Source of the DNA: Desulfotalea psychrophila LSv54
GTDB taxonomy: Bacteria > Desulfobacterota > Desulfobulbia > Desulfobulbales > Desulfocapsaceae
Assembly (NCBI RefSeq): GCF_000025945.1
Contig: NC_006138.1
Span: 2,070,001 to 2,102,000, forward strand
Length of the DNA: 32,000 nt
Reading direction: 5' to 3'
Below are positions 1-32,000 of the stretch, piece after piece. Numbering within the stretch: the first letter of the stretch is position 1; each line of letters opens with the position of its first letter. The position numbers and the translations under genes were made by a program. The notes beneath the pieces are model-generated. The model was given only the letters and a program-made list of their open reading frames with translations, was not told the origin of the DNA and ran no database searches.

Positions 1-213
1 CCGGTTTTTGACAAGCTAACTGAATCAGAACAGATAACTATTGATTTAGACGGTTGTTTTGGATACGCAACCAGTTTTTTAGAAGAAGTTTTTGGAGGGT
101 TATCAAGAGAATACGGAGCAAAAAAAGTTTTGGAAAAATTAAAATTTAAATCTGATGAAGAACCTCTTTTAATAACAGAAATTCAGGAGTATATAAAAGA
201 TGCTTCGAAATAA
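1..213 (+). CDS. 3' end of a gene cut by the window edge; C-terminus resembles STAS-like DUF4325 proteins
   Basis: Frame 1 is open from nt 1 to TAA at 211-213 (PVFDKLTESEQITIDLDGCFGYATSFLEEVFGGLSREYGAKKVLEKLKFKSDEEPLLITEIQEYIKDASK). The IDxDG..GY..SFLEExFGGL pattern matches what I recall for DUF4325. It is absent from the ORF track because it has no start. Confidence 0.45.
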   Translation, partial: PVFDKLTESEQITIDLDGCFGYATSFLEEVFGGLSREYGAKKVLEKLKFKSDEEPLLITEIQEYIKDASK

Positions 214-508
214 AGTAGGGATTTTTCTTGTTTTTTTAATTTTAGTAATCACCATTGATTTGTTAACAATCAATTTTCTGAAATGGGACTTTCTAAGTGT
301 TAATTTTTTTAATTGTCGATTAATTGAAATTTTAAGGCTACTTGTAATGATATTTTTAAGTTGTTACGTTGCTTATTGGGTTTCAATTAAAAGTAATGCA
401 ATTCAAAAAAAGAAGGATCTTTGTTTGGTTTTGATAAATGAGGGTAACTTGATTCTATCAGAACAAAAAGAGTTAACACTTTTCGTTTACACAGCAAACA
501 AGCAATAA
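200..508 (+). CDS. small hydrophobic protein (2-3 predicted TM segments), unknown function
   Basis: 102-aa ORF. Its ATG overlaps the upstream stop by 14 nt. Hydrophobic stretches GIFLVFLILVITIDLL and LLVMIFLSCYVAYWV. AT-rich codon usage unlike the rest of the window. Confidence 0.4.
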   Translation: MLRNKVGIFLVFLILVITIDLLTINFLKWDFLSVNFFNCRLIEILRLLVMIFLSCYVAYWVSIKSNAIQKKKDLCLVLINEGNLILSEQKELTLFVYTANKQ

Positions 509-545
509 AGATGATGGCAAGTTAGTTTTAAGTGGCTTTAGGCGA

Positions 546-761
546 ATGAACAATAAATTAGATGCTATAAATATATTGTGCAGCAAAATTGATTCCAAGC
601 TATCTGCTAGTACATTAATTACAAATTTTAAAATAATAAAAGAGCAGTTTGGGGATAGTTATATGGCAGGTTTTGCACTTGAAGATTCAAAAAAAATAGA
701 AAAAAATTTTGATAAATTTGAAAAACTGTTTGATGACTTAAGGATTCAATTGTTAATTTAA
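546..761 (+). CDS. hypothetical small protein (possibly the C-terminal part of a frameshifted gene with 200..508)
   Basis: 71-aa ORF. Its reading frame is already open from nt 477, so it overlaps the end of the previous ORF in another frame. Confidence 0.3.
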   Translation: MNNKLDAINILCSKIDSKLSASTLITNFKIIKEQFGDSYMAGFALEDSKKIEKNFDKFEKLFDDLRIQLLI

Positions 762-897
762 GTATTCTCAGCTAACAAAACGTTGCACCGGATTCGCTGA
801 AGCCTGTCGGTGAACTACCCGTCATACCTATTATTGATTACTATGATTGATCGAGTTGTCAGCTAGGCAGTGGGTATTTTCTTTCATCAGCAAGAGA

Positions 898-941: not shown

Positions 942-981
942 CTAGCATCTAGCATCTAGCATCTAGCATCTAGCATCTAGC
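942..981. repeat. heptanucleotide tandem repeat (CTAGCAT) x5.7
   Basis: Direct reading: ctagcat repeated at 942, 949, 956, 963, 970, then ctagc at 977. The last unit supplies the TAG stop (977-979, minus strand) of the ACP gene. Confidence 0.95.
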
Positions 982-1260: not shown

Positions 1261-1278
1261 GCCCCTCTCAGAGGTGGC
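1261..1278 (-). terminator. GC-rich hairpin plus U5 run lying in the leader just upstream of the ACP RBS (attenuator-like)
   Basis: Minus strand reads GCCACCUCUGAGAGGGGC (7 bp, one bulge) followed by CGUUUUU, then AAGGAAAGAU-AUG. Confidence 0.35.
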
Positions 1279-1301: not shown

Positions 1302-1317
1302 AGCCTACCTGTAGGCT
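1302..1317 (-). terminator. perfect palindrome AGCCTAC-ag-GTAGGCT followed by AUUUUAUAAU (terminator-like, overlaps a TTCAAG-18nt-TATAAT promoter-like pair)
   Basis: Arms at 1302-1308 and 1311-1317. On the minus strand TATAAT is the complement of 1292-1297 and TTCAAG is the complement of 1316-1321. Confidence 0.35.
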
Positions 1318-1509
1318 TGAAAACCATTGTCTAAAGGGTGTCTTTGAAAAATGAGACTTTTCGATAAATATCAGCTAAGCCCCGACTGCGAGGCATTTGG
1401 AAAATATTACCACAGGCATCGTTGATATCGGAGTCTACGCTTACCTCCGAGGATAAAATTTTTCATACAACGCAGAGATTTGAAGAAGAGACCATTTTTC
1501 GAGGCTCCC
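1314..1509 (-). repeat. dispersed intergenic repeat, copy A (full length, minus orientation)
   Basis: The reverse complement of 1448-1509 matches 31795-31856 at about 51 of 62 positions by hand alignment. The middle block (1390-1417) and 3' block (1331-1368) also match copy C. Confidence 0.85.
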
Positions 1510-5029: not shown

Positions 5030-6130
5030 TCATTGCTTTTCAGGACGGTTAGATGCGTTCTTCAGGAGGAGGGCGGCATTGATTCCGCCAAAACCGGAGT
5101 TGCAGGTGATGATGGAGGGGTGCCCGAGGGCAAGGGCCTCACTGCCTGAAAGCTGGCAGTCTGTTTCTGCCGGGACTTCAAGGCCCACCGTGGGGGGAAG
5201 GATCATATCCCTGAGGCTGTAGAGCGAGAGCACCGTTTCAACTATTCCCGAAGCGGCAAGGCTATGGCCCAGAGCGCCCTTTACGGAACAGACCGGCATT
5301 CCCGGGGCAAAGACCTTACTAAAGGCCAGGAGTTCCATGGCATCGTTATAGACCGTTGCCGTACCATGGGCATTGATGCCGCCAATGTCTCCGGCCTCCG
5401 CCTTTATCTGTTCCAAGGCGGCTATCAGTCCTGTTGCATATCTGCTGGGCGCAGTTATATGATTGGCATCGCAGCTGATGGACCAGGGACCGAGGGTGGC
5501 AAGCACCGATGAGGGTTCGGCTACTTCTGCCGCCGAGAGGAGGATCCAACCGGCCCCATCGCCTAAGGAGAGGCCATCACGATCTTTGGCAAAGGGCCTT
5601 GCCGCCGTTGCCGATAGGGCCTTGAGGCTGGAAAAACCGGAAAGGACAAACTGGGAGAGGAGGTCAAAGCCGATAATGAGGGCATGGTCGCACTCTCCTG
5701 CCTTAATGCGCATGGCTCCCTGAATGACGGCAATTAGGCCGGAAACGCAGGCTGCACTGACCGTGGTGCCTGCCTTTATTCCAAGTCTTTGGGCTAACTC
5801 CTCTGCCACCTGCCAGGGTTGGCCCTCTTCACGACCACTGCGGAGCAGGAACTCGTCCGTTGCCGCCTTGGTGGTGGCGCAAAAGAGTTGGGTGGCCGGT
5901 GAGAGCTGCGGGAGGCTGGCCAGAAGCCGCTTAAACATATCATTCTGGCGCTGAAGACTGCCCGGTTCTCCTGCCAAATCAGGAATAAAACCTAGAGGCC
6001 ATTCACCTTCCAGGCTCCCAAATTTTTGCAGGGAAATTCCCGTTTTGCCGGCAAGAAGGGCCTGCCAGGTTGATTGCCCATCGCCCAGGGGGGTGAGAAT
6101 ATCTCCGCCAACAACTACAACATCTCTCAT
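5030..6130 (-). CDS. beta-ketoacyl-ACP synthase (complete Cys-His-His)
   Basis: 366 aa. SAACVSG (Cys), NAHGTATVYND (His), KGALGHSLAASG (His). ATGA overlap with the thioesterase gene. Confidence 0.9.
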   Translation of the reverse strand: MRDVVVVGGDILTPLGDGQSTWQALLAGKTGISLQKFGSLEGEWPLGFIPDLAGEPGSLQRQNDMFKRLLASLPQLSPATQLFCATTKAATDEFLLRSGREEGQPWQVAEELAQRLGIKAGTTVSAACVSGLIAVIQGAMRIKAGECDHALIIGFDLLSQFVLSGFSSLKALSATAARPFAKDRDGLSLGDGAGWILLSAAEVAEPSSVLATLGPWSISCDANHITAPSRYATGLIAALEQIKAEAGDIGGINAHGTATVYNDAMELLAFSKVFAPGMPVCSVKGALGHSLAASGIVETVLSLYSLRDMILPPTVGLEVPAETDCQLSGSEALALGHPSIITCNSGFGGINAALLLKNASNRPEKQ

Positions 6131-6600
6131 GATTTACTCCATTTTCCTGTCTGCCATTGATGACGAAACTCTTCAAGCCAGACTGGTGTGATAAAGAGGG
6201 CCATGCCAGCCAGATCAGTGAGGAGCTGTACCGTATAGCCGCTGGCTGCTATTTCTCCTGCCCCGTTTCGGATCAGATAGGAGATGTTGAGACGGGCAGA
6301 CTCCACCCAGTGCAGGGAGGTCTCAATGCTGATCTGCTCATTAAAGTGGAGGGGCCTCTTATAATCCAGATGCATCTGGACAATGGGGGCGGCAATATCA
6401 TGCTGGTGAAAGAGCTCATAGCTCAGACCGCACATATCTCCCAGGGCCATTCTTCCATCCTCTAAGTAACTGGAATATCGTCCATGCCAGACGATGCCCA
6501 GGGAGTCAACCTCTTCAAAACGGATCCGTGTCCGGGCAATGCCCGTAAGAGGTGCAGGTGCCGAATCATCCTCGGGAAAATATTTTTTTATAAAGCCCAT
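6127..6600 (-). CDS. 4HBT/YbgC-type acyl thioesterase (hotdog)
   Basis: RIRFEEVDSLGIVWHGRYSSYLEDGR motif. I place the start at ATG 6600 (MGFIKKYF...) because the 34-codon N-terminal extension in the ORF track runs through a copy of the intergenic repeat. Confidence 0.8.
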   Translation of the reverse strand: MGFIKKYFPEDDSAPAPLTGIARTRIRFEEVDSLGIVWHGRYSSYLEDGRMALGDMCGLSYELFHQHDIAAPIVQMHLDYKRPLHFNEQISIETSLHWVESARLNISYLIRNGAGEIAASGYTVQLLTDLAGMALFITPVWLEEFRHQWQTGKWSKS

Positions 6601-6642
6601 ATTATGCCTATGTCTTAAAATGATAGTACAGATCTTACTGAG

Positions 6643-6678
6643 TAAAGGGTGGCTTGAAAAATTAGACTTTTCTTCAAC
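6643..6678 (-). repeat. dispersed intergenic repeat, copy E (3' module only)
   Basis: The minus strand reads GAAAAGTCTAATTTTTCAAGCCACCCTTTA. This matches copy A at about 29 of 32 positions and matches copy C at 31912-31939. Confidence 0.8.
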
Positions 6679-7078
6679 TTTTGCTGAAATCGCAGCTACC
6701 ATTGCTGACAGACTTACCCTCTTTTTTTACGGTAAACTCGCCATGGTAGAGTTCCTCCTCCGGGGTGAGCCTTACCTCTATCTCTACCTCCTCCCCCGGC
6801 AGTATCGCCCCGGAAAATTTAATTCTTCCATATGCCCGTAGCTGTAGGGCAAAACCGAGGGCCTGCTCTGAGATATGCCGTACTGTGGTAAGCTGGACAA
6901 CGGCGGGCAGGACTGAGTGATCGGGGAAATGGCCGGCAAAGGCGGAAAACGTCTCTGGAAAAACAAAGCTGGCCCTGGCCTGAACAGCTCCCTCCTTCAA
7001 CTCTTTAAGTGCAGAGCTGAGGCAGCAATCTTTAAGAGAGGCATATATGGGAGTATAGGTTTTTTCACTGGGAGTCAT
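6674..7078 (-). CDS. hotdog-fold 3-hydroxyacyl-ACP dehydratase (ApeI/FabA-FabZ-like)
   Basis: FAGHFPDHSVLPAVVQL motif. AAGGA lies 6 nt before ATG 7078 (the ORF track TTG at 7084 is also possible). Overlaps the end of the lipoprotein gene. Confidence 0.75.
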   Translation of the reverse strand: MTPSEKTYTPIYASLKDCCLSSALKELKEGAVQARASFVFPETFSAFAGHFPDHSVLPAVVQLTTVRHISEQALGFALQLRAYGRIKFSGAILPGEEVEIEVRLTPEEELYHGEFTVKKEGKSVSNGSCDFSKS

Positions 7079-10597: not shown

Positions 10598-10665
10598 TTT
10601 TTCCACGTGGTGAGGCTGACGGAATCATCCTTCTTCAGGACTTGTTAACTTTACAAGATTCTGGG

Positions 10666-10716
10666 AGCTTGAAAAACAGGCAATTTCGATAAGACAGAGA
10701 TTTAAAGAAAGGCTCC
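10666..10716 (-). repeat. dispersed intergenic repeat, copy D (short, internally deleted)
   Basis: The minus strand reads GGAGCCTTTCTTTAAATCTCTGTCTTATCGAAATTGCCTGTTTTTCAAGCTC. It shares the 5' GGAGCC, TTCTTYAAAT..CTG..TTATCGAAA and TTTTTCAAGC blocks. It begins 2 nt after the upstream stop codon. Confidence 0.6.
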
Positions 10717-10717
10717 A

Positions 10718-11167
10718 TCAAGGTTTTTTCAGGTCTTCCCAGACCTTAAGGTTGCCTGTAGCCAGGAGATCCTCATTAGAAAATACCTCTCCTTTGAGGA
10801 AGCTGATTGCGCCAAATTCAAAGGTCTTCTCCACCACCACCCGTAATCTTTCGCCACCGTGGCCATTTTTGTTGAGGGAGAAATCCTCTAAACCCACCAA
10901 CATGCCATCATGCAGGGGCTTACCTGCTGAAAGTGCTATAAAACCATTCTGCAGGGCTGCTGCTTGGGCGATGAGCTCCACAAAAAATTCAGGAAGGAAC
11001 TGGTCCCCTGCAAAAAAAATACCCTTCTCCGGTAGACGGGCCAGAACAACAGCCCTCTCGGAGTTACACTCCTGCAGAGAATCCACCAGAAGCATCGGCG
11101 CCCGGTGTGGTAGGAGCAGGCCTGCCGGCATGGGTAATTCAAACTCTTCTTTCACTGTATTTTCCAT
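10718..11167 (-). CDS. FabZ/ApeP-like 3-hydroxyacyl-ACP dehydratase (hotdog)
   Basis: LLPHRAPMLLVDSL motif. GAGGA lies 4 nt before ATG 11167, preferred over ATG 11203, which would overlap fabG. Confidence 0.8.
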   Translation of the reverse strand: MENTVKEEFELPMPAGLLLPHRAPMLLVDSLQECNSERAVVLARLPEKGIFFAGDQFLPEFFVELIAQAAALQNGFIALSAGKPLHDGMLVGLEDFSLNKNGHGGERLRVVVEKTFEFGAISFLKGEVFSNEDLLATGNLKVWEDLKKP

Positions 11168-19513: not shown

Positions 19514-20818
19514 TTACCTATAATCAAAAAACTTTCTTGGTTTTCGTCCACCATCCGCCGTCATGGTGGCCTTAACCTGTTCGGGAGGAAGCACCGTCAG
19601 GGTAGGTTTTACCCGCAGCTGTGCCTGGAGCATCTCCTCAAATTTTTTGTCCAGCGCCTTATCATCACAGCCAACCACTACATGGACATCATCAATTCCA
19701 TCGGCACCTGTACGTACCTCAACGTATGCTCCAGAAACGGCCTCAACCTTCTGCAGAATATTGAAGATTGTTTCAGGATAAAGGGTTGTCCCCTTATATT
19801 TCAGTCGCTGAGCCAGACGTCCCTCCACGGGGCCCAGTCGTTTGGTGTTCCAGCCACAGGCACATGGGGAGTTTTCCAATCGACTGATATCACCAGTTTT
19901 AAGGCGGACCAGGGGGAATCCCTCGATGCCCAGAGGTGTTACCACCACCTCGCCAGAAACGCCATCGGCTACCACCCTGCCATGATCATCCACCACCTCG
20001 ACCAACATCAGCTCAGGGTGGACATGTCCGCCCCGGGCCATGGTGCATTCGCTAAAGGCAGTTTCAAACTCTGTTGCCCCGTAAGAAGAGTAGAGGTCTG
20101 CTTGCCAGAGATCATGTAGTTGAGCGCCAAGTGGGGTGAGACCGTGATCCGGTTGCCGCACAGATTCACCTATGGTGATAATGCTCTTAATCGAAGAGGT
20201 GGCAGGGTCTATTCCTTCCGCCAAGGCCCACTGGCCGAGATCGCGTAAAAATGTGGGTACCCCGACAATGATCTTGGGCTTTAGGGTGTTTATGGTGTGC
20301 CACTGACGAGCCGGTTGGCCGGGGCCGCTGCGAATTGCCGAGGCGCCCAGAAAGGTTATGCCGGAGTAGTAGGCAAGTCCTGCTACAAAACACCTGTCCA
20401 GAGTTACCGTTAGTAGTACCCTGTCCTCAGGTCGAACTCCCGCGCCATAAAAGGCCATTGCCTCGTTAAAGGCCAGTCGTTTCAGATCTGCTTCGGTATA
20501 GGGGACCACAACCGCATTACCCGTGGTTCCCGATGTCAGGGCAATATCACGAAAGGCCCTTTCATTACGCAAACCAAATGCGTCAGCATGACTGTCCAGC
20601 TGTTCTCTGGTCGTGAAGGGGAGTTGGGAGAGCTCTGCAACAGAGCTTAGAGCCTCTATCTCTTTTTTCCCTATGCCCAACGCCTTTTTGTAAAAGGGTA
20701 TGCTGAGGGCATGGAGCAGATGTCTCTTGAGCAGTACCAGTTGTACCTCTTCAATTTGCGCCAGAGGGGCCCTGCGAAGAGAAATAGCCTGCTCGATATT
20801 GTACTTATCTGCCAACAT
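19514..20818 (-). CDS. PaaK/coenzyme F390 synthetase-family adenylate-forming enzyme (starter-acid activation)
   Basis: 434 aa. TSGTTGNAVVVPYT motif and the size typical of phenylacetate-CoA ligase-like enzymes. Confidence 0.8.
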   Translation of the reverse strand: MLADKYNIEQAISLRRAPLAQIEEVQLVLLKRHLLHALSIPFYKKALGIGKKEIEALSSVAELSQLPFTTREQLDSHADAFGLRNERAFRDIALTSGTTGNAVVVPYTEADLKRLAFNEAMAFYGAGVRPEDRVLLTVTLDRCFVAGLAYYSGITFLGASAIRSGPGQPARQWHTINTLKPKIIVGVPTFLRDLGQWALAEGIDPATSSIKSIITIGESVRQPDHGLTPLGAQLHDLWQADLYSSYGATEFETAFSECTMARGGHVHPELMLVEVVDDHGRVVADGVSGEVVVTPLGIEGFPLVRLKTGDISRLENSPCACGWNTKRLGPVEGRLAQRLKYKGTTLYPETIFNILQKVEAVSGAYVEVRTGADGIDDVHVVVGCDDKALDKKFEEMLQAQLRVKPTLTVLPPEQVKATMTADGGRKPRKFFDYR

Positions 20819-20836: not shown

Positions 20837-20897
20837 GGGGAAACCTTGAAAAAATAGATTTTTCTTTAAATTTCCGCATTATTCGAAAAATCTTCCA
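20837..20897 (+). repeat. dispersed intergenic repeat, copy B (5' module, plus orientation, antisense to the operon)
   Basis: GGGGAAACCTTGAAAAAATAGATTTTTCTTTAAATTTCCGCATTATTCGAAAAATCTTCC aligns with 31795-31853. Confidence 0.75.
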
Positions 20898-24633: not shown

Positions 24634-24752
24634 AGTTCCTCCCAGGATTCGTGTTTTTTATTTTTGCTGACAAAAGTCAAACCATCGGTAAAAAAATATA
24701 TACGATGGATTAATTTATCACATAACTAACAGCAACTCATTGTTCAATGTAA

Positions 24753-24822
24753 AGAGATTTTTTCTTCTAATAGGCAACAATTGTGTCTCTTGCCAAGAAA
24801 ATTCGTTTTGATGCCTTGATAA
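24753..24822 (+). repeat. possible degenerate copy F of the intergenic repeat, upstream of the first MFS gene
   Basis: AGATTTTTTCTTCTAATAGGC...TGTCTCTTGCCAAGAAAATTCGTTTTGATGCCTTGAT loosely parallels AGTCTTTTCTTCAAATTGCTGC...TGTCTGTGGTAAAATTTTACGAATGCCTTGAT of copy C. Confidence 0.3.
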
Positions 24823-24894
24823 TTCATCTGTTCTTATGCTAGAAAATCATAGGAGAGAAGCCGCGAAAAAAAAAATCAGTAATAGGTTGAAAAT

Positions 24895-26289
24895 ATGAGC
24901 ATCAAACAAAAAAATGGTGAAGCTTCCACCATCATTTTGGTATCCATTGTCCAGTTTATCACTCCCTTTATGGCCTCCGGGGTGAGTGTTGCTCTGCCCA
25001 CAATTGGTCGCCATTTTTCTGCAAGTGCCTTTCAACTCGGTCTTGCTGAGATGATCTATATTCTGGGCGTAAGCATATTTCTGCTGGCAGCGGGGCAGTT
25101 GGCCGATATATTTGGCAGAAAGAAGATTTTTCTCATGGGTATTTGTGGCTTTATTATCTCTACCTTTGCTATTACCGCCACCAGGTCAATGGGGCAGTTT
25201 CTCCTTGTCAGGTTTGTGCAGGGGCTCAGTGTTTCCTTTATTGCCACCACCACCTTTGCCATCCTCTCCTCCGTCGTTCCGCGGGAGCGTCGGGGAAAAA
25301 GTATGGGCATTGTTCTTGCCTTTGTCTATGCAGGACTTTCAGCAGGCCCAGCTCTGGGTGGATTCATTGTCTTCCAATTTAACTGGCACTGGCTCTTTGT
25401 CTTTGCCGGCCTACTTGCCAGCTTGGCCCTTCTTCTCTGTTTAAAAACTCTCAAAGGTGAGTGGTGGGGTAGCCCCGAGCAGAAATTTGATTATCGTGGC
25501 TGTGCTGTCTATATGCTTTCTCTCTCCTTTCTGGTAGTGGGTGTTGCCGGTCACACTATGGTGGGCGGCTATGCCGCTGCCCTAGTTGTAGCCGGTATTG
25601 TTGGTCTTTCTTTCTTTTTCTGGTTGGAGACCAGGGTGAAATCACCGATGCTTGACGTTCGTATGATTTTTGCTAATCGCGTACTCTTTTTTACGGTGCT
25701 GGCTGCCCTGATCAACTATGGAGCAAGTTTTGCTATTATCTTTTTTTTCAGTCTCTATTTACAGAGCGTAAAGGGACTCTTGCCACAGGTGGCAGGCTCT
25801 GTTCTCATCCTGCAAACCCTTGTTCAATGTATTCTCTCTCCTCTCTCAGGAAAACTTGCCGATAAAATTTATCCGGGAAAAATAGCCACCCTTGGTATGT
25901 TTGTTGGCACCATCGGTCTTGGTATGGCAAGCCTGATCGAACAGGAGAGTTCCGTTGCCATGGTTGCCTTAGTCTTTGTGGTAGTGGGTGTGGGCTTTGG
26001 CCTCTTTGCCTCACCCAATATGACTATTATTATGAACTCGGTACCACAAGAGGCATATGGGCAGGCCTCAAGTCTCACAGCTACGGTACGAACTCTGGGG
26101 ATGCTCACTAGCATGGCCATAGCGTCTCTCTTGGTCTCCCATTTCATGGGCGATACTCCCATCAACAAGGAGAGCATTCCTCTCTTTATGAAGAGTTTGC
26201 AGGGGGCGATGCTGACCTTTACCCTTATGAGTCTGGTGGGTGTCTTTCTCTCCCTGGGGCGAGCCAAGGCGCCAACCAATGAGCCGTAG
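24895..26289 (+). CDS. MFS transporter, DHA2 (EmrB/QacA-like, 14 TMS) family, paralogue 1
   Basis: 464 aa, about 14 hydrophobic segments. Motif A-like GQLADIFGRKKIF. Confidence 0.9.
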   Translation: MSIKQKNGEASTIILVSIVQFITPFMASGVSVALPTIGRHFSASAFQLGLAEMIYILGVSIFLLAAGQLADIFGRKKIFLMGICGFIISTFAITATRSMGQFLLVRFVQGLSVSFIATTTFAILSSVVPRERRGKSMGIVLAFVYAGLSAGPALGGFIVFQFNWHWLFVFAGLLASLALLLCLKTLKGEWWGSPEQKFDYRGCAVYMLSLSFLVVGVAGHTMVGGYAAALVVAGIVGLSFFFWLETRVKSPMLDVRMIFANRVLFFTVLAALINYGASFAIIFFFSLYLQSVKGLLPQVAGSVLILQTLVQCILSPLSGKLADKIYPGKIATLGMFVGTIGLGMASLIEQESSVAMVALVFVVVGVGFGLFASPNMTIIMNSVPQEAYGQASSLTATVRTLGMLTSMAIASLLVSHFMGDTPINKESIPLFMKSLQGAMLTFTLMSLVGVFLSLGRAKAPTNEP

Positions 26290-26434
26290 CGCCTTGGTCA
26301 TCATCGTTTCATTTCTCAGGGTACTGTAATTTTTTTTCTCTGCCCCTCCCTCTTCTACTGAGAAAGGGCCTCTTCTTGCCACTTTCGATCAACGTTTATT
26401 GACTTTTTTTGAAAAAAAAGTACTGTTGCCCAAT

Positions 26435-26443
26435 CAACAGTTG
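26435..26443. promoter_or_regulatory. small palindrome CAAC-A-GTTG flanked by TCAACA direct repeats just upstream of marR (candidate operator)
   Basis: aaTCAACAGTTGtcgtgTCAACAatcaat read directly. No experimental or comparative support. Confidence 0.2.
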
Positions 26444-26471
26444 TCGTGTCAACAATCAATATGGGGTTTCC

Positions 26472-26912
26472 ATGGCTTTTCGAAAAAAGAGTTTAGGCGC
26501 ATGCATTGCGAAAATATTTCGTCTCCAACGTTTAGCGGCCGAGCCCCGTGCCCATGCGCTCGGCATCAGGGAGAGTCAGATCCCATTTCTGGCCTTTATT
26601 CTTGAAAGCCCGGGGATAAATCAGGATGAGCTTTCCAGACAATATTTTATTGATAAGGGTGCTACCGCCCGACAAACGGCAAAGCTTGAAGAGCAGGGGC
26701 TGATCGAAAGGGTAGTTGATCCGGATAACCGGAGAAAAAAACGGCTCTATCCAACCAGCAAGGCTCTTACTCTTGGTCCCGATTTTTACGGAATGCTTGA
26801 TGGCCTCAATGATACCTTCCTGGCGGGGTTTTCAGAAGCAGAGAAGGAACAGCTCCTCCTCCTCCTTGATAAGGTGTCTGTCAATATGTTAAAGCCATCC
26901 ATAAATGAGTAA
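26472..26912 (+). CDS. MarR-family transcriptional regulator
   Basis: 146 aa from ATG 26472 (GGGG 5 nt upstream). Winged HTH QDELSRQYFIDKGATARQTAKLEEQGLIERVVDPDNRRKKRLYPT. The TTG-started extension in the ORF track (26409) is unlikely. Confidence 0.85.
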   Translation: MAFRKKSLGACIAKIFRLQRLAAEPRAHALGIRESQIPFLAFILESPGINQDELSRQYFIDKGATARQTAKLEEQGLIERVVDPDNRRKKRLYPTSKALTLGPDFYGMLDGLNDTFLAGFSEAEKEQLLLLLDKVSVNMLKPSINE

Positions 26913-26924
26913 TAGGTTATAGAA

Positions 26925-28316
26925 ATGAGTTCTAGAGAAGAAAATGAATTTTCCACCGTCCTTCTGGTGTGTATTGTCCAGTTTATCACTCCCTTTATGG
27001 CTTCCGGGGTAGGCGTCGCCCTGCCTACAATTGGTCGGTACTTTTCCGCAAGTGCCTTTCAGCTTGGCCTGGCGGAAATGGTCTATATCCTTGGCTTAAG
27101 CACATTCCTCCTGGCAGCCGGGCAGATCTCAGATATACTTGGTCGGAAAAAGATATTTCTCACGGGGATCTGTGGCTTTATTCTCTGTACCTTCGCCCTT
27201 ACTGCCACCCGGTCCATGGAGCAGTTTCTGGTCATCAGATTCTTTCAGGGAGTCAGTGTTTCACTTATTACCACCACTACCTTTGCCATTCTTACCTCCG
27301 TCGTTCCCGCGGAGCGGCGCGGAAGAAGTATGGGGATTATTATCTCCTCCATCTACGCGGGGCTGTCAGCAGGGCCAGCCCTGGGGGGCGTTATTGTCTC
27401 TCACTTTAACTGGCAGTGGCTCTTCGTCTTTACCGGTCTGCTTGCCAGCCTGGCCCTTTTTCTCTGCTTGAAATCGCTCAAGGGTGAATGGTGGGGCAGT
27501 CCCAATCAAAGATTCGACTATCGCGGCAGCACTGTCTATATGATCTCTCTTGCCTCTCTGATCATTGGGGTAGTGGGGCAGGAAATGGTGGGGGGATATG
27601 CTCTGTACTTGGGCACAGCCGGTATTGCCGGTCTCTGCTTTTTCGGTTGGCTGGAGACGCGGGTAAAGTCACCGATGCTCAACGTTCGCATGATTCTTGG
27701 CAATCGGGTGCTCTTTTTTACGGTGCTTACCACCCTGATCAACTATGGGGCAAGCTTTGGTATTATCTTCTTCTTTAGTCTGTATCTCCAGAGTGTTAAA
27801 GGTCTTTCTCCCCAGGTGGCGGGCTCCCTTCTCATTTTGCAAACCCTTGTTCAGTGTATCCTTGCCCCTCTTTCAGGAAAACTTGCCGATAAAATTTTTC
27901 CGGGGAAAATAGCCACTCTGGGGATGATCGTCGTAACCATAGGTCTTGGTCTGGCAACCCTCATAGATAGGGAGAGCTCCATTGCTATGGTTGCCGTGAT
28001 ATTTGCTATCATGGGGGTAGGTTTTGGCCTCTTTTCCTCGCCCAATATGACTGTTATCATGAACTCGGTGCCACGGGAGGCATATGGGCAGGCCTCAAGT
28101 CTGACAGCTACGGTGCGTACCTTGGGGATGCTCAGTAGCATGGCAATCTCATCCCTGTTGCTAGCTCATTTTATGGGTCATACGCCCATCACCGAGGAGA
28201 ATATTCCCCTCTTTATGAAGAGTCTGCAAAACGGCATGCTGATCTTTACTGGTATGGGAGTGCTGGGTATCTTTTTATCACTGGGGCGGGCTAAACCTCT
28301 GGCTAATAGGGAGTAG
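26925..28316 (+). CDS. MFS transporter, DHA2 family, paralogue 2
   Basis: 463 aa, collinear with 24895..26289 over its full length (roughly three-quarters or more identical by eye). The upstream 11-mer AGTAATAGGTT is also shared. Confidence 0.9.
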   Translation: MSSREENEFSTVLLVCIVQFITPFMASGVGVALPTIGRYFSASAFQLGLAEMVYILGLSTFLLAAGQISDILGRKKIFLTGICGFILCTFALTATRSMEQFLVIRFFQGVSVSLITTTTFAILTSVVPAERRGRSMGIIISSIYAGLSAGPALGGVIVSHFNWQWLFVFTGLLASLALFLCLKSLKGEWWGSPNQRFDYRGSTVYMISLASLIIGVVGQEMVGGYALYLGTAGIAGLCFFGWLETRVKSPMLNVRMILGNRVLFFTVLTTLINYGASFGIIFFFSLYLQSVKGLSPQVAGSLLILQTLVQCILAPLSGKLADKIFPGKIATLGMIVVTIGLGLATLIDRESSIAMVAVIFAIMGVGFGLFSSPNMTVIMNSVPREAYGQASSLTATVRTLGMLSSMAISSLLLAHFMGHTPITEENIPLFMKSLQNGMLIFTGMGVLGIFLSLGRAKPLANRE

Positions 28317-30730: not shown

Positions 30731-31606
30731 TTATTCTGCTCTCTTTGTTTTGGAATAGTCGCTGGGGCTGTTGCCAAAATAGCGTTTAAATTCTCGACTG
30801 AACTGGGTGCTACTCTCATAGCCCACCTCAGCTGCCGCTTCACTGACTCGCATTCTCTGCCCGATGAGGAGGGAGTGCGCTCTGCTTAAGCGGATTTTTT
30901 TGATATATTGGATGGGGGTTGAGGCGGTTATCTCCTTAAAAACACGGTGGAAGACAGAGGGACTCATGTTGACTAGCTGGGAGAGTTGTTCTACGGCAAT
31001 GCCCTGCTGATAGTGTGTATCTATGAACTTTAAGGCCCTGTCGATTTGGGAGAGCCTGCTATTGTTGCTGGCAAGGGCATAGAGAGAGGCGGCGCCCTCG
31101 GCACAGATAAGACGAAACATTAACTCCTGGATAAGTGCTTCGCCAAGGATGTGGCTTTCCAGTGGTGTTTGCAGTGCTTGCAGTAATCTTCTTAGGGTCT
31201 CGTTTATAGTAGAACTTCTCCTGCCAAGAAAAAGGCCCTGTTGCTCTTTAGCATAGGAGGGAGGGGGGCGCTGGTCGCCGAGCTGAATGATGATGTGGTT
31301 GAGCTGTTGGACATCAATGTCTACCATCATCAGGAGCACTGGCTTTTGTGTCGTCGCGCAGGTCTCGCACTCTGCAGGGATGGGCACCGTTAGTACCAGG
31401 TAATTTTCGGGATTGTACTCATATATTTTGTCATCGAGGTATACCCTCTTTGAGCCCTGACCGACAAAGAGAACTCCTTGTTTGTAGCAGAGCGGGCCCC
31501 GGGGTGAATAGGCACTTGCCTTAAATATTTTAATTCTGGAGAGGGAGGTTTCGTTGAGCCCCTCCTCCGTCGCCAGATTGTTCATCAGTTCGCCTATGGT
31601 TTGCAT
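30731..31606 (-). CDS. AraC-family transcriptional regulator (AraC_N + HTH, YqhC-like)
   Basis: C-terminal double HTH (VEQLSQLVNMSPSVFHRVFKEITASTPIQYIKKIRL...VSEAAAEVGYESSTQFSREFKRYFGNSP). GGGG 5 nt before ATG 31606; the upstream ATG 31642 lacks an RBS. Confidence 0.85.
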   Translation of the reverse strand: MQTIGELMNNLATEEGLNETSLSRIKIFKASAYSPRGPLCYKQGVLFVGQGSKRVYLDDKIYEYNPENYLVLTVPIPAECETCATTQKPVLLMMVDIDVQQLNHIIIQLGDQRPPPSYAKEQQGLFLGRRSSTINETLRRLLQALQTPLESHILGEALIQELMFRLICAEGAASLYALASNNSRLSQIDRALKFIDTHYQQGIAVEQLSQLVNMSPSVFHRVFKEITASTPIQYIKKIRLSRAHSLLIGQRMRVSEAAAEVGYESSTQFSREFKRYFGNSPSDYSKTKRAE

Positions 31607-31794
31607 GCTATCCCCTTTTATAAGATGTGATTCTTTCACCATAACAGGTCGGCCCGGTAATGCGATTATTTATAGGGGCAGTAGGATTAGGCATGAAAAT
31701 GATGGCTTTGTGTCTTCTCTTTTTTTCAAATTTATTTAAATATTAGCTGATGTAACAAAACATGTAGATTGCGGCTAAGCAGCTCTCTATTTAT

Positions 31795-31939
31795 GGGAAC
31801 CATGAAAAATAGTCTTTTCTTCAAATTGCTGCGTTATTCGAAAAATTCTATCCTCGAAATATTGCCTATATGTCTGTGGTAAAATTTTACGAATGCCTTG
31901 ATCTTTATTGAAAAATCCTAATTTTTCAAGCCACCCTTA
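31795..31939 (+). repeat. dispersed intergenic repeat, copy C (full length, plus orientation)
   Basis: See copy A. Contains a perfect 9-bp AT hairpin, TTGAAAAAT-ccta-ATTTTTCAA, at 31908-31929. Confidence 0.85.
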
Positions 31940-31960: not shown

Positions 31961-32000
31961 ATGTTGAATTTTAGTTTTTATAACCCGACAAATATTGTTT
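31961..32000 (+). CDS. 5' end of an iron-containing alcohol dehydrogenase (YqhD/butanol dehydrogenase-like), truncated by the window
   Basis: MLNFSFYNPTNIV matches the characteristic M-x-N-F-x-(F/Y)-x-N-PT-x-I N-terminus of group III ADHs. Divergent from the AraC/YqhC-like gene. Only 13 codons are visible. Confidence 0.5.
   Translation, partial: MLNFSFYNPTNIV

What the first reader, a model, noticed from the sequence alone, without database searches (positions are those of the whole stretch)
1314..1509. Dispersed modular intergenic repeat family occupying most of the larger intergenic gaps in the window
The same sequence recurs at several sites. Full copies are at 1314-1509 (minus) and 31795-31939 (plus). 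Partial copies are at 20837-20897 (plus, 5' module), 10666-10716 (minus, internally deleted) and 6643-6678 (minus, 3' module). A degenerate copy may lie at 24753-24822. The consensus blocks are: GGGARCC..GAAAAAT.GTCTYTTCTTCAAAT..CTGCGTTRT.CGAAAAATT.TATCCTCG / GYCTGTGGTAAWATTTT.C.AATGCCTYG / GAAAAGTCTAATTTTTCAAGCCACCCTTTA. By hand alignment, about 51 of 62 positions match between the two full copies in the 5' block, and about 29 of 32 between copies A and E in the 3' block. Copies A and D begin within 0-2 nt of an upstream stop codon. The 3' block lies 20-90 nt upstream of three start codons (ACP, thioesterase, ADH). Copy B is antisense to the operon, which argues against a simple promoter. The 3' block can form an AU-rich hairpin, perfect at 9 bp in copy C. 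It is not obviously REP, MITE or riboswitch. It could be an mRNA-processing or stability element, a small-RNA family or a regulator binding array.
Basis: seen in the sequence. Interest (0 to 1): 0.65.

Follow-up and report, generated by a model that had tools for sequence, protein, structure and literature searches.

The report
MITE-like intergenic repeat family
The repeated sequence is real, and it looks like the decaying remains of a small non-coding mobile element with inverted-repeat ends that inserted between (and slightly into) genes of a lipid-biosynthesis cluster; this is a common kind of bacterial "junk" repeat, with no evidence so far of a special function.

Summary
Five related copies lie in the 32-kb window:
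- two full copies, A (1336-1509, minus) and E (31795-31936, plus);
- a 78-nt mini-variant that keeps both ends, D (10663-10740, minus);
- a 5' half, C (20837-20894, plus);
- a solo end module, B (6647-6684).

The proposed sixth copy at 24753-24822 is not supported.

Against shuffled sequence this is significant, most strongly between copies. The anatomy fits a MITE-like, ERIC/Correia-like repeat:
- short, AT-rich and non-coding;
- both orientations present;
- internal-deletion and solo-end variants;
- one copy carries a nested insertion.

The sites look like insertions. The permease-to-ACP gap is 265 nt here and 22-79 nt in five relatives. The dehydratase-to-thioesterase gap is 73 nt here and 2 nt in Desulfomarina.

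Nothing supports a structured RNA. There is no Rfam hit, fold z-scores are weak and inconsistent, and there is no compensatory signal. No sigma-70-type promoter-like site was found at the three copies scanned (A, C, E).

The source is almost certainly Desulfotalea psychrophila LSv54. Its genome was not searchable here, so copy number, the partner transposase and the target-site duplication remain open. Verdict: a new member of a known kind, of modest interest.

The parts
1336..1509 (-). Copy A, full-length (174 nt). It lies between the ABC-2 permease stop codon (1509-1511; the G of TAG is the first G of the GGGAGCC terminus) and the ACP start at 1243. It carries extra internal segments compared with copy E.
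   Evidence: nhmmer E = 1.1e-68 against its own model. Alignment to E. Inverted-repeat pairs I1 and I3. Termini.
1430..1445 (-). Nested 16-nt insertion, GGTAAGCGTAGACTCC, inside copy A and absent from copy E. It is identical to a unit that occurs in tandem next to 5S-rRNA-like sequence elsewhere in the D. psychrophila chromosome.
   Evidence: Gap in E at this position. Single exact hit in the window. Five occurrences in NC_006138.1 flanks in supplement 93 of PMC2864571.
1310..1323 (-). Extra terminus-like motif, TTTTCAAGCCTACA, 13 nt beyond copy A's 3' end. Possibly the remnant of a second, adjacent end module.
   Evidence: Terminal-motif search.
6647..6684 (-). Copy B, a solo terminal module (38 nt). 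It matches the 3' module on the minus strand and equally the 5' module on the plus strand. Its inner part contains the last three codons and the TGA stop (6674-6676) of the ApeI-like dehydratase. Its outer end lies 46 nt upstream of the thioesterase ATG at 6600.
   Evidence: nhmmer 7.8e-04 on minus and 0.043 on plus. Module HMM 6.8e-09, though B was used to train that model. I2, 93% to E. Gene ends.
10663..10740 (-). Copy D, a 78-nt mini-variant with both termini (GGGAAGACCTGAAAAAAC ... GTTTTTCAAGCTCCC) and no central block. Its 5' end supplies the last codons and the TGA stop (10718-10720) of the ApeP-like dehydratase. Its 3' end lies about 56 nt upstream of the LolA-like gene.
   Evidence: Pattern hit. 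Terminal motif. Module HMM gives 5.2e-05 for the 3' end (a training sequence) and 0.065 for the 5' end (not a training sequence). Sequence.
20837..20894 (+). Copy C, a 5' half only (58 nt), antisense to the minus-strand gene array. Its terminus points at the AMP-ligase start at 20818, 18 nt away. The truncated side faces the acyltransferase stop.
   Evidence: nhmmer 7.5e-07. D12, 86% to E over 42 nt. Sequence.
31795..31936 (+). Copy E, full-length (142 nt), in the divergent AraC-type regulator / alcohol dehydrogenase intergenic region. Its 3' end lies 25 nt upstream of the ATG at 31962. It is flanked by TTAT on both sides.
   Evidence: nhmmer 1.4e-42. I1-I3. Sequence.

Best explanation
These are copies and fragments of a small (about 140-175 bp), AT-rich, non-coding repeat with roughly 30-nt imperfect terminal inverted repeats. 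That makes it a MITE-like element of the same general kind as ERIC, Correia, RUP and BOX elements. It is specific to the Desulotalea lineage as far as the searches here can show.

The likely history, which is inferred rather than shown, runs as follows. A transposase encoded elsewhere in the genome recognised the inverted-repeat ends and inserted copies into AT-rich spots at gene boundaries, including stop codons and short intercistronic spacers. The host was a comparatively GC-rich, probably horizontally acquired, aryl-polyene-like lipid gene cluster. The copies then decayed by point mutation (about 67-89% pairwise identity), internal deletion (D), truncation (B, C) and nested insertion (A).

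Copies inside the gene array are presumably co-transcribed and tolerated. In two cases the element now supplies the stop codon of the upstream gene. Any effect on mRNA, such as pairing of the two ends to make an RNase target, would be a by-product and not the reason the repeat exists.

Shown: the repeat family, the inverted-repeat ends, the variants, the positions, absence at the orthologous sites in relatives, and the lack of RNA-structure signal.
Inferred: transposition, the source transposase, co-transcription and neutrality.
For: 1. Homology extends over the whole 142-174 nt, not just a motif.
2. The ends are inverted repeats. Within a copy, 29-39 of 2000 shuffles reach the observed score. 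Across copies, 0-2 of 1000 do so in 7 of 9 comparisons. The outward-facing motif TTTTCAAGSYNNCC occurs 7 times against 1.0 expected: six hits at element termini and one at the terminus-like remnant beside copy A.
3. The variant spectrum is typical of decaying MITEs: two full copies, a mini-copy that keeps both ends, a half copy and a solo end, in both orientations.
4. It is AT-rich (28-43% GC) within a cluster of 52.5% GC.
5. No coding capacity is evident. The A/E alignment has 15- and 17-nt indels. A profile of the translated open frame finds nothing among 5.8 billion proteins.
6. The sites look like insertions. The permease-to-ACP gap is 265 nt here and 25, 29, 79, 22 and 31 nt in five relatives. 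The ApeI-to-thioesterase gap is 73 nt here and 2 nt in Desulfomarina profundi. The ApeI C-terminal tail is 8 residues shorter here and ends inside the element. None of the 186 kb of fetched loci contains the element.
7. Copy A carries a nested 16-nt unit of another repeat of the same genome. This is expected for neutral DNA.
8. Copy E is flanked by a perfect 4-bp direct repeat, TTAT.
9. These features match the definition of a prokaryotic MITE in PMC10969869.
Against: - Mobility is not shown, and no transposase with matching ends is in the window.
- Target-site duplications are not consistent. E has TTAT/TTAT, A has at best TAG/TAG with 1-2 nt of slack, and D has none.
- Genome-wide copy number could not be measured, because the source genome is absent from every searchable collection.
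- Five copies in 32 kb, four of them inside one gene cluster, would imply either hundreds of copies genome-wide or local clustering. Local clustering could equally point to a cluster-specific role.
- The transcript hairpins are weak compared with classical MITEs (z = -0.4 to -2.0 on the sense strand).
Confidence: 0.6

Rival explanations
1. Exapted cis-acting RNA element. When a copy inside the operon is transcribed, its two ends or the AU-rich end hairpins pair and act as RNase III/E processing or mRNA-stability sites. This would set different expression levels along the long lipid-cluster transcript, as reported for Correia and ERIC elements. This reading is compatible with a mobile origin.
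For: - Four copies sit between co-oriented genes with otherwise tiny or overlapping junctions.
- The minimum-free-energy folds of A, D and E pair the two ends.
- In all five copies an end module lies 18-92 nt upstream of the next start codon.
- Some end modules fold better than shuffles (z = -2.3, -2.1, -1.7).
- The organism grows in the cold, where AU hairpins are more stable (E(+) z = -2.0 at 10 C).
- There is precedent in PMC10969869.
Against: - Fold z-scores are inconsistent. A sense gives -0.4/-0.5 and D gives -0.3/-0.4, and three end modules are positive or near zero.
- The better-folding strand is the antisense one for A, and for E it is the strand opposite the ADH gene.
- Copy C is in the opposite orientation.
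- Complementarity between ends within a copy is no better than between copies, so there is no compensatory evolution.
- There is no Rfam family match.
- The element is absent from orthologous operons in relatives, so the operon does not need it.
Confidence: 0.15
2. REPIN-like or IS200/IS605-type (PATE) element. In this reading the end modules are individual imperfect palindromes (GAAAAAT-N5-TTTTC) recognised as hairpins by a Y1 (RAYT/TnpA) transposase. Full elements are inverted doublets, and B and C are decayed singlets.
For: - Each end module has its own short palindrome. GAAAAATNNNNNTTTTC gives 8 strand-hits against 0.29 expected, all in end modules.
- The doublet-plus-singlet pattern is present.
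- Consistent target-site duplications are lacking.
- A Y1_Tnp gene occurs in the related Desulfomarina locus, which shows such enzymes exist in the family.
Against: - The palindromes are AT-rich and weak (-2.7 to -5 kcal/mol at 37 C), unlike GC-rich REPs.
- There is no conserved GTAG/GTGG head.
- The spacer between modules (80-110 nt) carries conserved sequence of its own and is longer than in REPINs.
- No RAYT gene lies in the window.
Confidence: 0.1
3. Regulator-binding array. The palindromic end module (TTGAAAAAT-N-TTTTTCAA-like) would be the operator of a local transcription factor, such as the adjacent AraC-type or MarR-type regulator. The copies would mark internal promoters or operators that tie the lipid cluster and the ADH gene into one regulon.
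For: - Copies cluster in one 32-kb neighbourhood that also encodes AraC- and MarR-family regulators.
- An end module always faces a nearby start codon.
- Copy E sits in the AraC/ADH divergent region.
- The palindromic half-sites are strongly over-represented.
Against: - Similarity extends over 140 nt or more, including a central block, far more than an operator needs.
- The copies are degenerate in exactly the palindrome: D lacks it at the 3' end and A's 5' module is poor.
- No sigma-70-type promoter-like site was found at the three copies scanned, A, C and E.
- The divergent promoter region of the cluster itself (24634-24894) has no copy.
- Relatives with the same cluster lack the element.
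Confidence: 0.07
4. Family of independently transcribed small RNAs, or remnants of a small protein-coding gene.
For: - One frame on the reverse strand is open across most of E and is partly similar in A and C.
- The reverse strands of E and A fold better than shuffles at 10 C (z = -3.7 and -2.75).
Against: - There is no start codon, and the A/E alignment has a frame-breaking 17-nt indel.
- A profile of the translated frame finds nothing in 5.8 billion proteins, with no hit even at E <= 10.
- No promoter- or terminator-like sites fall within the element sequence at the three copies scanned (A, C, E); the only terminator-like hairpins lie downstream of copy A's 3' end.
- There is no Rfam hit.
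- Three of the five copies are fragments.
Confidence: 0.03

Closest known systems
ERIC / IRU (enterobacterial repetitive intergenic consensus) elements
   Same: An imperfect palindrome of about 127 bp found in transcribed intergenic regions, including within operons. Copies occur in both orientations, and variants are made by internal insertions or deletions at fixed sites. Copy number differs greatly between lineages. Insertion at the 3' end of genes can alter mRNA stability through RNase E (PMC10969869).
   Different: There is no sequence similarity. This element is AT-rich, and only its outer 30 nt or so are inverted repeats, with a non-palindromic conserved core. It occurs in a different phylum (Desulfobacterota).
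Correia (CREE/NEMIS) elements of Neisseria
   Same: About 100-200 bp with inverted-repeat ends of roughly 26 nt. Shorter variants have an internal deletion. They lie immediately upstream of genes or between co-transcribed genes. End pairing in mRNA is cleaved by RNase III, and TA target duplication occurs (PMC10969869; the TA duplication is from general knowledge).
   Different: No promoter-like sites were detected at the copies scanned. No clear IHF site was seen by eye. The TA duplication is not consistent. The hairpins are much weaker. There is no sequence similarity.
BOX and RUP elements of Streptococcus pneumoniae
   Same: A modular build (boxA-boxB-boxC), in which partial combinations of modules occur at different sites. 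They are intergenic and the transposase is unknown or indirect (PMC10969869, and general knowledge).
   Different: BOX modules can be repeated in tandem, which is not seen here. There is no sequence similarity.
REPINs / REP sequences mobilised by RAYT transposases
   Same: Inverted doublets of short imperfect palindromes, with decayed singlets. They are strictly extragenic (PMC3116915 is listed; the details are from general knowledge).
   Different: REPs are GC-rich, stable hairpins with a conserved GT[AG]G head and a short spacer. Here the palindromes are AU-rich and weak, and the spacer is long and conserved.
Desulfotalea-1 RNA motif (Weinberg et al. 2010)
   Same: It is the only previously described multi-copy non-coding motif of the same organism that I could find. 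It has 229 members and no Rfam accession.
   Different: It is an unrelated sequence (UGGCAUCGCUUGCGUCC...CCCUGAGGGCAAAAAAAA) located near rRNA operons. The end motifs of the window repeat do not occur in that alignment file, flanks included.

Membership tests
Prokaryotic MITE (as defined in PMC10969869) | Total length below about 500 bp | tested here: met
   Full copies are 142 and 174 nt and the mini-variant is 78 nt.
Prokaryotic MITE | Terminal inverted repeats of about 4-30 bp | tested here: met
   The ends align as inverted repeats over about 17-35 nt. Shuffle tests give 29-39 of 2000 within a copy and 0-2 of 1000 for most cross-copy pairs. The terminal motif is enriched 7-fold.
Prokaryotic MITE | Flanking direct repeats (target-site duplication), at least in young copies | tested here: inconclusive
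   E has TTAT|...|TTAT. A has TAG/TAG only if the ends are shifted by 1-2 nt. D has none. B and C are truncated. The copies are old (about 67-89% identity), and duplications wane with age.
Prokaryotic MITE | No transposase or other coding capacity | tested here: met
   Six-frame translation shows only one partly open frame, with no start codon and a frame-breaking indel between copies. A protein profile search finds nothing.
Prokaryotic MITE | AT-rich and inserted in intergenic regions | tested here: met
   The copies are 28-43% GC against 52.5% for the surrounding cluster. All copies lie at gene junctions, and B and D overlap only the last 3-7 codons of the upstream gene.
Prokaryotic MITE | Multiple dispersed copies genome-wide | not testable with these tools
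   Five copies lie in the window. The source genome is not in genome contigs, metagenome contigs or the contig index.
Prokaryotic MITE | Mobilised in trans by a cognate IS whose terminal inverted repeats match | not testable with these tools
   No IS lies in the window and no ISfinder library is available. blastn against 72,556 plasmids and 50,697 phages finds nothing.
Prokaryotic MITE | Transcript forms a thermodynamically stable stem-loop | tested here: inconclusive
   The ends pair in the minimum-free-energy folds of A, D and E. The z-scores are only -1.3, -0.4 and -0.3 at 37 C, and range from -2.0 to -0.4 (sense) and -2.75 to -3.7 (reverse strand) at 10 C.
Presence/absence polymorphism expected of a mobile insertion | Empty orthologous sites in relatives | tested here: met
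   Site A: the gap is 22-79 nt in five relatives and 265 nt here. Site B: the gap is 2 nt in Desulmarina profundi and 73 nt here. The relatives are distant (59-74% amino-acid identity for the flanking genes), so this shows absence, not a recent insertion.
REP/REPIN | GC-rich stable palindrome with a conserved GT[AG]G head, and an associated RAYT gene | tested here: not met
   The end-module hairpins are AU-rich at -2.7 to -5 kcal/mol. The heads are GGGAGCC/GGGAACC/GGGTGGC, with no conserved GTAG. No Y1 transposase lies in the window. The rest of the genome is not testable.
Any Rfam RNA family | Covariance-model match | tested here: not met
   cmscan of the whole window on both strands, with an E-value threshold of 1, returns 0 matches.
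Structured functional RNA (generic) | Compensatory base changes that preserve the pairs | tested here: not met
   Within-copy complementarity of the two ends (scores 17-18) is lower than between-copy complementarity (19-36). With only three copies that have both ends, the power of this test is low.

The most novel reading that the evidence does not exclude
The repeat is not merely selfish DNA. In this reading it has been recruited as operon 'punctuation' in a psychrophile. Cold-stabilised AU-rich hairpins, or pairing of the two ends, would sit a short distance upstream of selected cistrons (ACP, thioesterase, LolA-like, AMP-ligase, ADH). They would act as temperature-dependent RNase or translation-control sites, which would explain why one end module is always kept facing the next start codon, even in the truncated copies.
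Probability: 0.07. Interest if true: 0.6.

Novelty: new member of a known kind. Interest (0 to 1): 0.28.

Why it matters
If the reading is right, this is an undescribed, lineage-specific MITE-like family in Desulfotalea psychrophila, a model cold-adapted sulfate reducer. It has practical uses:
- It explains the unusually long intercistronic gaps in the cluster.
- It explains two altered C-termini and stop codons in the lipid (aryl-polyene-like) gene cluster.
- It warns annotators against reading these gaps as promoters, small RNAs or small ORFs.
- It gives a marker for strain typing, and for dating the acquisition of this comparatively GC-rich cluster.

It does not open a new biological principle. 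Such repeats, and their occasional side effects on mRNA stability, are well documented in other phyla.

Tried and rejected
1. Genome-wide and relative-wide copy search. An exact IUPAC pattern of the 5' block scanned against genome contigs gave 7 single hits in unrelated taxa. Against metagenome contigs it gave 10 hits. None extended beyond the pattern in nhmmer, and the best one (L003) reads as coding sequence. Viral contigs gave 0 hits for two patterns. The source genome is therefore not searchable here.

2. Exact-protein look-ups of window proteins to obtain more of the contig returned 'not on record'.

3. The D. psychrophila plasmids, tried by accession, are not in the plasmid collection. 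The accession numbers came from memory.

4. I translated the repeat's open frame and searched it as a profile, hoping to catch spurious ORFs called over other copies. There were no hits. Alignment A1 contained a mis-entered sequence and was discarded in favour of A2.

5. Rfam scan at E <= 1 found nothing.

6. The Desulotalea-1 motif of Weinberg 2010 was checked as a possible prior description. It is an unrelated sequence.

7. Sigma-54, CRP and IHF consensus sites were checked by eye in the central and 5' blocks. The matches were poor, so I rejected them. This rests on inspection only.

8. The sixth copy at 24753-24822 is rejected: nhmmer E = 20 and a local-alignment shuffle p > 0.05.

9. The coding-remnant idea is rejected.

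10. blastn against plasmids and phages, as a proxy for known IS or MITE ends, found no match.

Full report
**What is there**

The window carries a long array of 26 co-oriented minus-strand genes (977-24633). They encode an aryl-polyene-like / unusual lipid pathway:
- three ACPs, several ketosynthases, and ApeI- and ApeP-like dehydratases;
- a ketoreductase, acyltransferases, a glycosyltransferase and radical-SAM enzymes;
- an AMP-ligase, a LolA-like protein, an MMPL-like exporter, an ABC-2 transporter and a BtrH_N/DUF4872 protein.

Downstream on the plus strand lie MFS-MarR-MFS genes, then a minus-strand AraC-type regulator (30731-31642) that is divergent from a gene starting at 31962.

One window protein sits on a contig of 3,523,383 bp. 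That is exactly the published size of the Desulotalea psychrophila LSv54 chromosome (PMC2702500). A 16-mer inside copy A also recurs in flanks taken from NC_006138.1 in a published alignment. I therefore take the source to be D. psychrophila LSv54. Its genome is not present in any collection I could scan.

**Checking the observation**

- An HMM built from the two full copies finds the other full copy at E = 1.4e-42, the 20838-20894 copy at 7.5e-07 and the 6639-6673 copy at 7.8e-04. The 10685-10740 copy is marginal at 0.25.
- The last copy is rescued by a 27-nt pattern (4 hits against 0.00 expected, though the pattern was designed from those copies). It is also supported by independent matches of both of its ends to an end-module model and by the terminal motif.
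- The proposed degenerate copy at 24753-24822 fails every test.

The family is therefore real and has five members in the window.

**Anatomy**

GAAAA-n-TC-n2-ATTTTTCAAG-n3-CCC.
- Shuffle tests give 29-39 of 2000 within a copy.
- They give 0-2 of 1000 for seven of nine cross-copy end comparisons.
- The outward-reading motif TTTTCAAGSYNNCC (up to 1 mismatch) occurs 7 times against 1.0 expected. Six hits are at element ends and the seventh is a terminus-like remnant at 1310-1323, beside copy A's 3' end.

Redefined by their GGG...CCC termini, the copies are:

| Copy | Coordinates | Strand | Length | Form |
|---|---|---|---|---|
| A | 1336-1509 | minus | 174 nt | full |
| E | 31795-31936 | plus | 142 nt | full |
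| D | 10663-10740 | minus | 78 nt | both ends kept, central block missing |
| C | 20837-20894 | plus | 58 nt | 5' half |
| B | 6647-6684 | minus/either | 38 nt | solo end module, fits either end equally |

 Further points:
- Pairwise identity over aligned parts is 67-89%.
- A differs from E by two extra segments of 15 and 17 alignment columns.
- One of those segments contains the 16-mer GGTAAGCGTAGACTCC. This is a unit that occurs in tandem beside 5S-like sequence elsewhere in the D. psychrophila chromosome. It is a nested insertion of a second short repeat.
- The copies are 28-43% GC, inside a cluster that averages 52.5%.

**Position**

In the minus-strand array most junctions overlap or are under 60 nt. 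Four of the five largest gaps (265, 111, 95 and 73 nt) hold copies A, D, C and B. The 77-nt gap does not.
- Copy A begins on the last base of the permease stop codon.
- The inner parts of B and D contain the last codons and the stop codon of the ApeI-like and ApeP-like dehydratases.
- Compared with Desulfomarina profundi, the ApeI-like protein here ends 3 residues after the conserved C-x-F, instead of 11.
- The thioesterase starts at the ATG at 6600, not at the start of the longest ORF.
- In every copy one end module points at the next start codon, 18-92 nt away. For the three copies with both ends this is automatic. For the two truncated copies it is 2 of 2, which is not significant.

**Comparison with relatives**

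No relative closer than about 70% amino-acid identity with useful contig length was available. The 90%-identical hit is a 1.3-kb contig that is all coding.
- The permease-to-ACP junction is 25, 29, 79, 22 and 31 nt in five related clusters, against 265 nt here.
- The ApeI-to-thioesterase junction is 2 nt in D. profundi, against 73 nt here.
- None of the 186 kb of fetched loci contains the element.

The cluster's closest homologues are from Desulfuromonadales-type organisms and not from Desulfobulbales. Its GC content also exceeds the 46% genome average. This suggests the cluster was acquired horizontally and colonised by the host's AT-rich repeat afterwards. That step is inference.

**Tests of functional readings**

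- Rfam: no match at E <= 1.
- Folding: the two ends pair in the minimum-free-energy structures of A, D and E. The energies are not clearly better than dinucleotide shuffles: z = -1.3, -0.4 and -0.3 at 37 C. At 10 C the sense strands give -2.0, -0.5 and -0.4, while the reverse strands of E and A reach -3.7 and -2.75.
- End-module hairpins range from z = +1.0 to -2.3. The perfect 9-bp AU stem exists only in E.
- Complementarity between the ends within a copy is no better than between copies, so nothing indicates compensatory maintenance of a helix.
- The consensus scans find no sigma-70-like promoter at the three copies scanned (A, C, E). The only terminator-like hairpins lie downstream of A's 3' end and occur at chance frequency.
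- One reverse-strand frame is open through most of E. It lacks a start codon, is broken by a 17-nt indel in A, and a profile of it finds nothing among 5.8 billion proteins.

**Interpretation**

The anatomy matches the published definition of a prokaryotic MITE (under 500 bp, terminal inverted repeats up to about 30 bp, AT-rich, intergenic, non-coding, direct repeats that fade with age; PMC10969869). It also shows the variant spectrum known from ERIC, Correia, BOX and RUP elements.

I therefore commit to a MITE-like, lineage-specific intergenic repeat that is now decaying (confidence 0.6). Mobility, the partner transposase, the target-site duplication (only E shows a clean TTAT/TTAT) and the genome-wide copy number are not shown.

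The main alternatives are:
- a secondary role in mRNA processing or stability (0.15; this is compatible with a mobile origin);
- a REPIN/Y1-transposase-type origin (0.10);
- a regulator-binding array (0.07);
- a small-RNA or coding remnant (0.03).

**Novelty and interest**

I found no prior description:
- There is no Rfam family.
- The only published multi-copy non-coding motif I found for this organism, Desulfotalea-1, is unrelated.
- The literature searches found nothing on such repeats in Desulfotalea.

This is a new member of a well-known kind. It is useful for annotation and for reconstructing the history of this gene cluster. It would not surprise a specialist, hence the interest score of about 0.28.

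Noticed in passing
window 1430-1445 (minus), inside copy A: The 16-mer GGTAAGCGTAGACTCC is absent from copy E. It is identical to a unit that occurs in tandem (GGUAAGCGUAGACUCC repeated) next to degenerate 5S-rRNA-like sequence at several places in NC_006138.1, as seen in the flanks of the Desulfotalea-1 alignment of Weinberg et al. 2010. This points to a second, very short repeat family of this genome that can insert into other sequences.
   Followed up: partly
window 942-981: A perfect heptanucleotide tandem repeat, (CTAGCAT) x 5.7. It overlaps the stop codon of the last ACP gene of the array (977-1243, minus). Its length is not a multiple of three, so copy-number changes would alter the C-terminus or stop of the ACP.
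   Followed up: no
window 24895-26289 and 26925-28316: Two MFS transporter genes, about 80% identical at the DNA level (2027-nt register), flank a MarR-family regulator gene (26409-26912). This is a recent tandem duplication around the regulator.
   Followed up: no
window 1-800 versus 1000-24600: There is a sharp compositional break. GC is 25-31% in the first 800 nt (small AT-rich ORFs) and 50-64% in the lipid gene cluster, against a published genome average of 46%. The cluster's proteins are closest to Desulfuromonadales-type homologues (about 70%) and less close to the same-family Desulfomarina (63%). This suggests the cluster was acquired horizontally.
   Followed up: partly
window 6127-6702 (minus): The longest ORF of the thioesterase gene overstates the protein by 34 residues. 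Alignment to the Desulfomarina orthologue places the true start at the ATG at 6600. The extra N-terminal ORF sequence is read through repeat copy B.
   Followed up: yes
window 1302-1317 and 1262-1274 (minus): Two terminator-like hairpins followed by T-runs lie between copy A and the ACP start. Their number is at chance level for the region. If real, they would separate the ACP gene from the upstream operon.
   Followed up: no
L019 15442-15867 (Desulfomarina profundi AP024086.1): A Y1_Tnp (IS200/IS605- or RAYT-type) transposase gene sits inside the related lipid gene cluster of D. profundi, between the permease and the ACP-KS part. This shows that the cluster is a target for mobile elements in the family.
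   Followed up: no
window 31717-31731: TCTTTTTTTCAAATT lies just upstream of copy E and resembles the element's TCTTTTCTTCAAATT (14 of 15; local shuffle p about 0.007). It could be a tiny remnant of another copy or simply AT-rich low complexity.
   Followed up: partly
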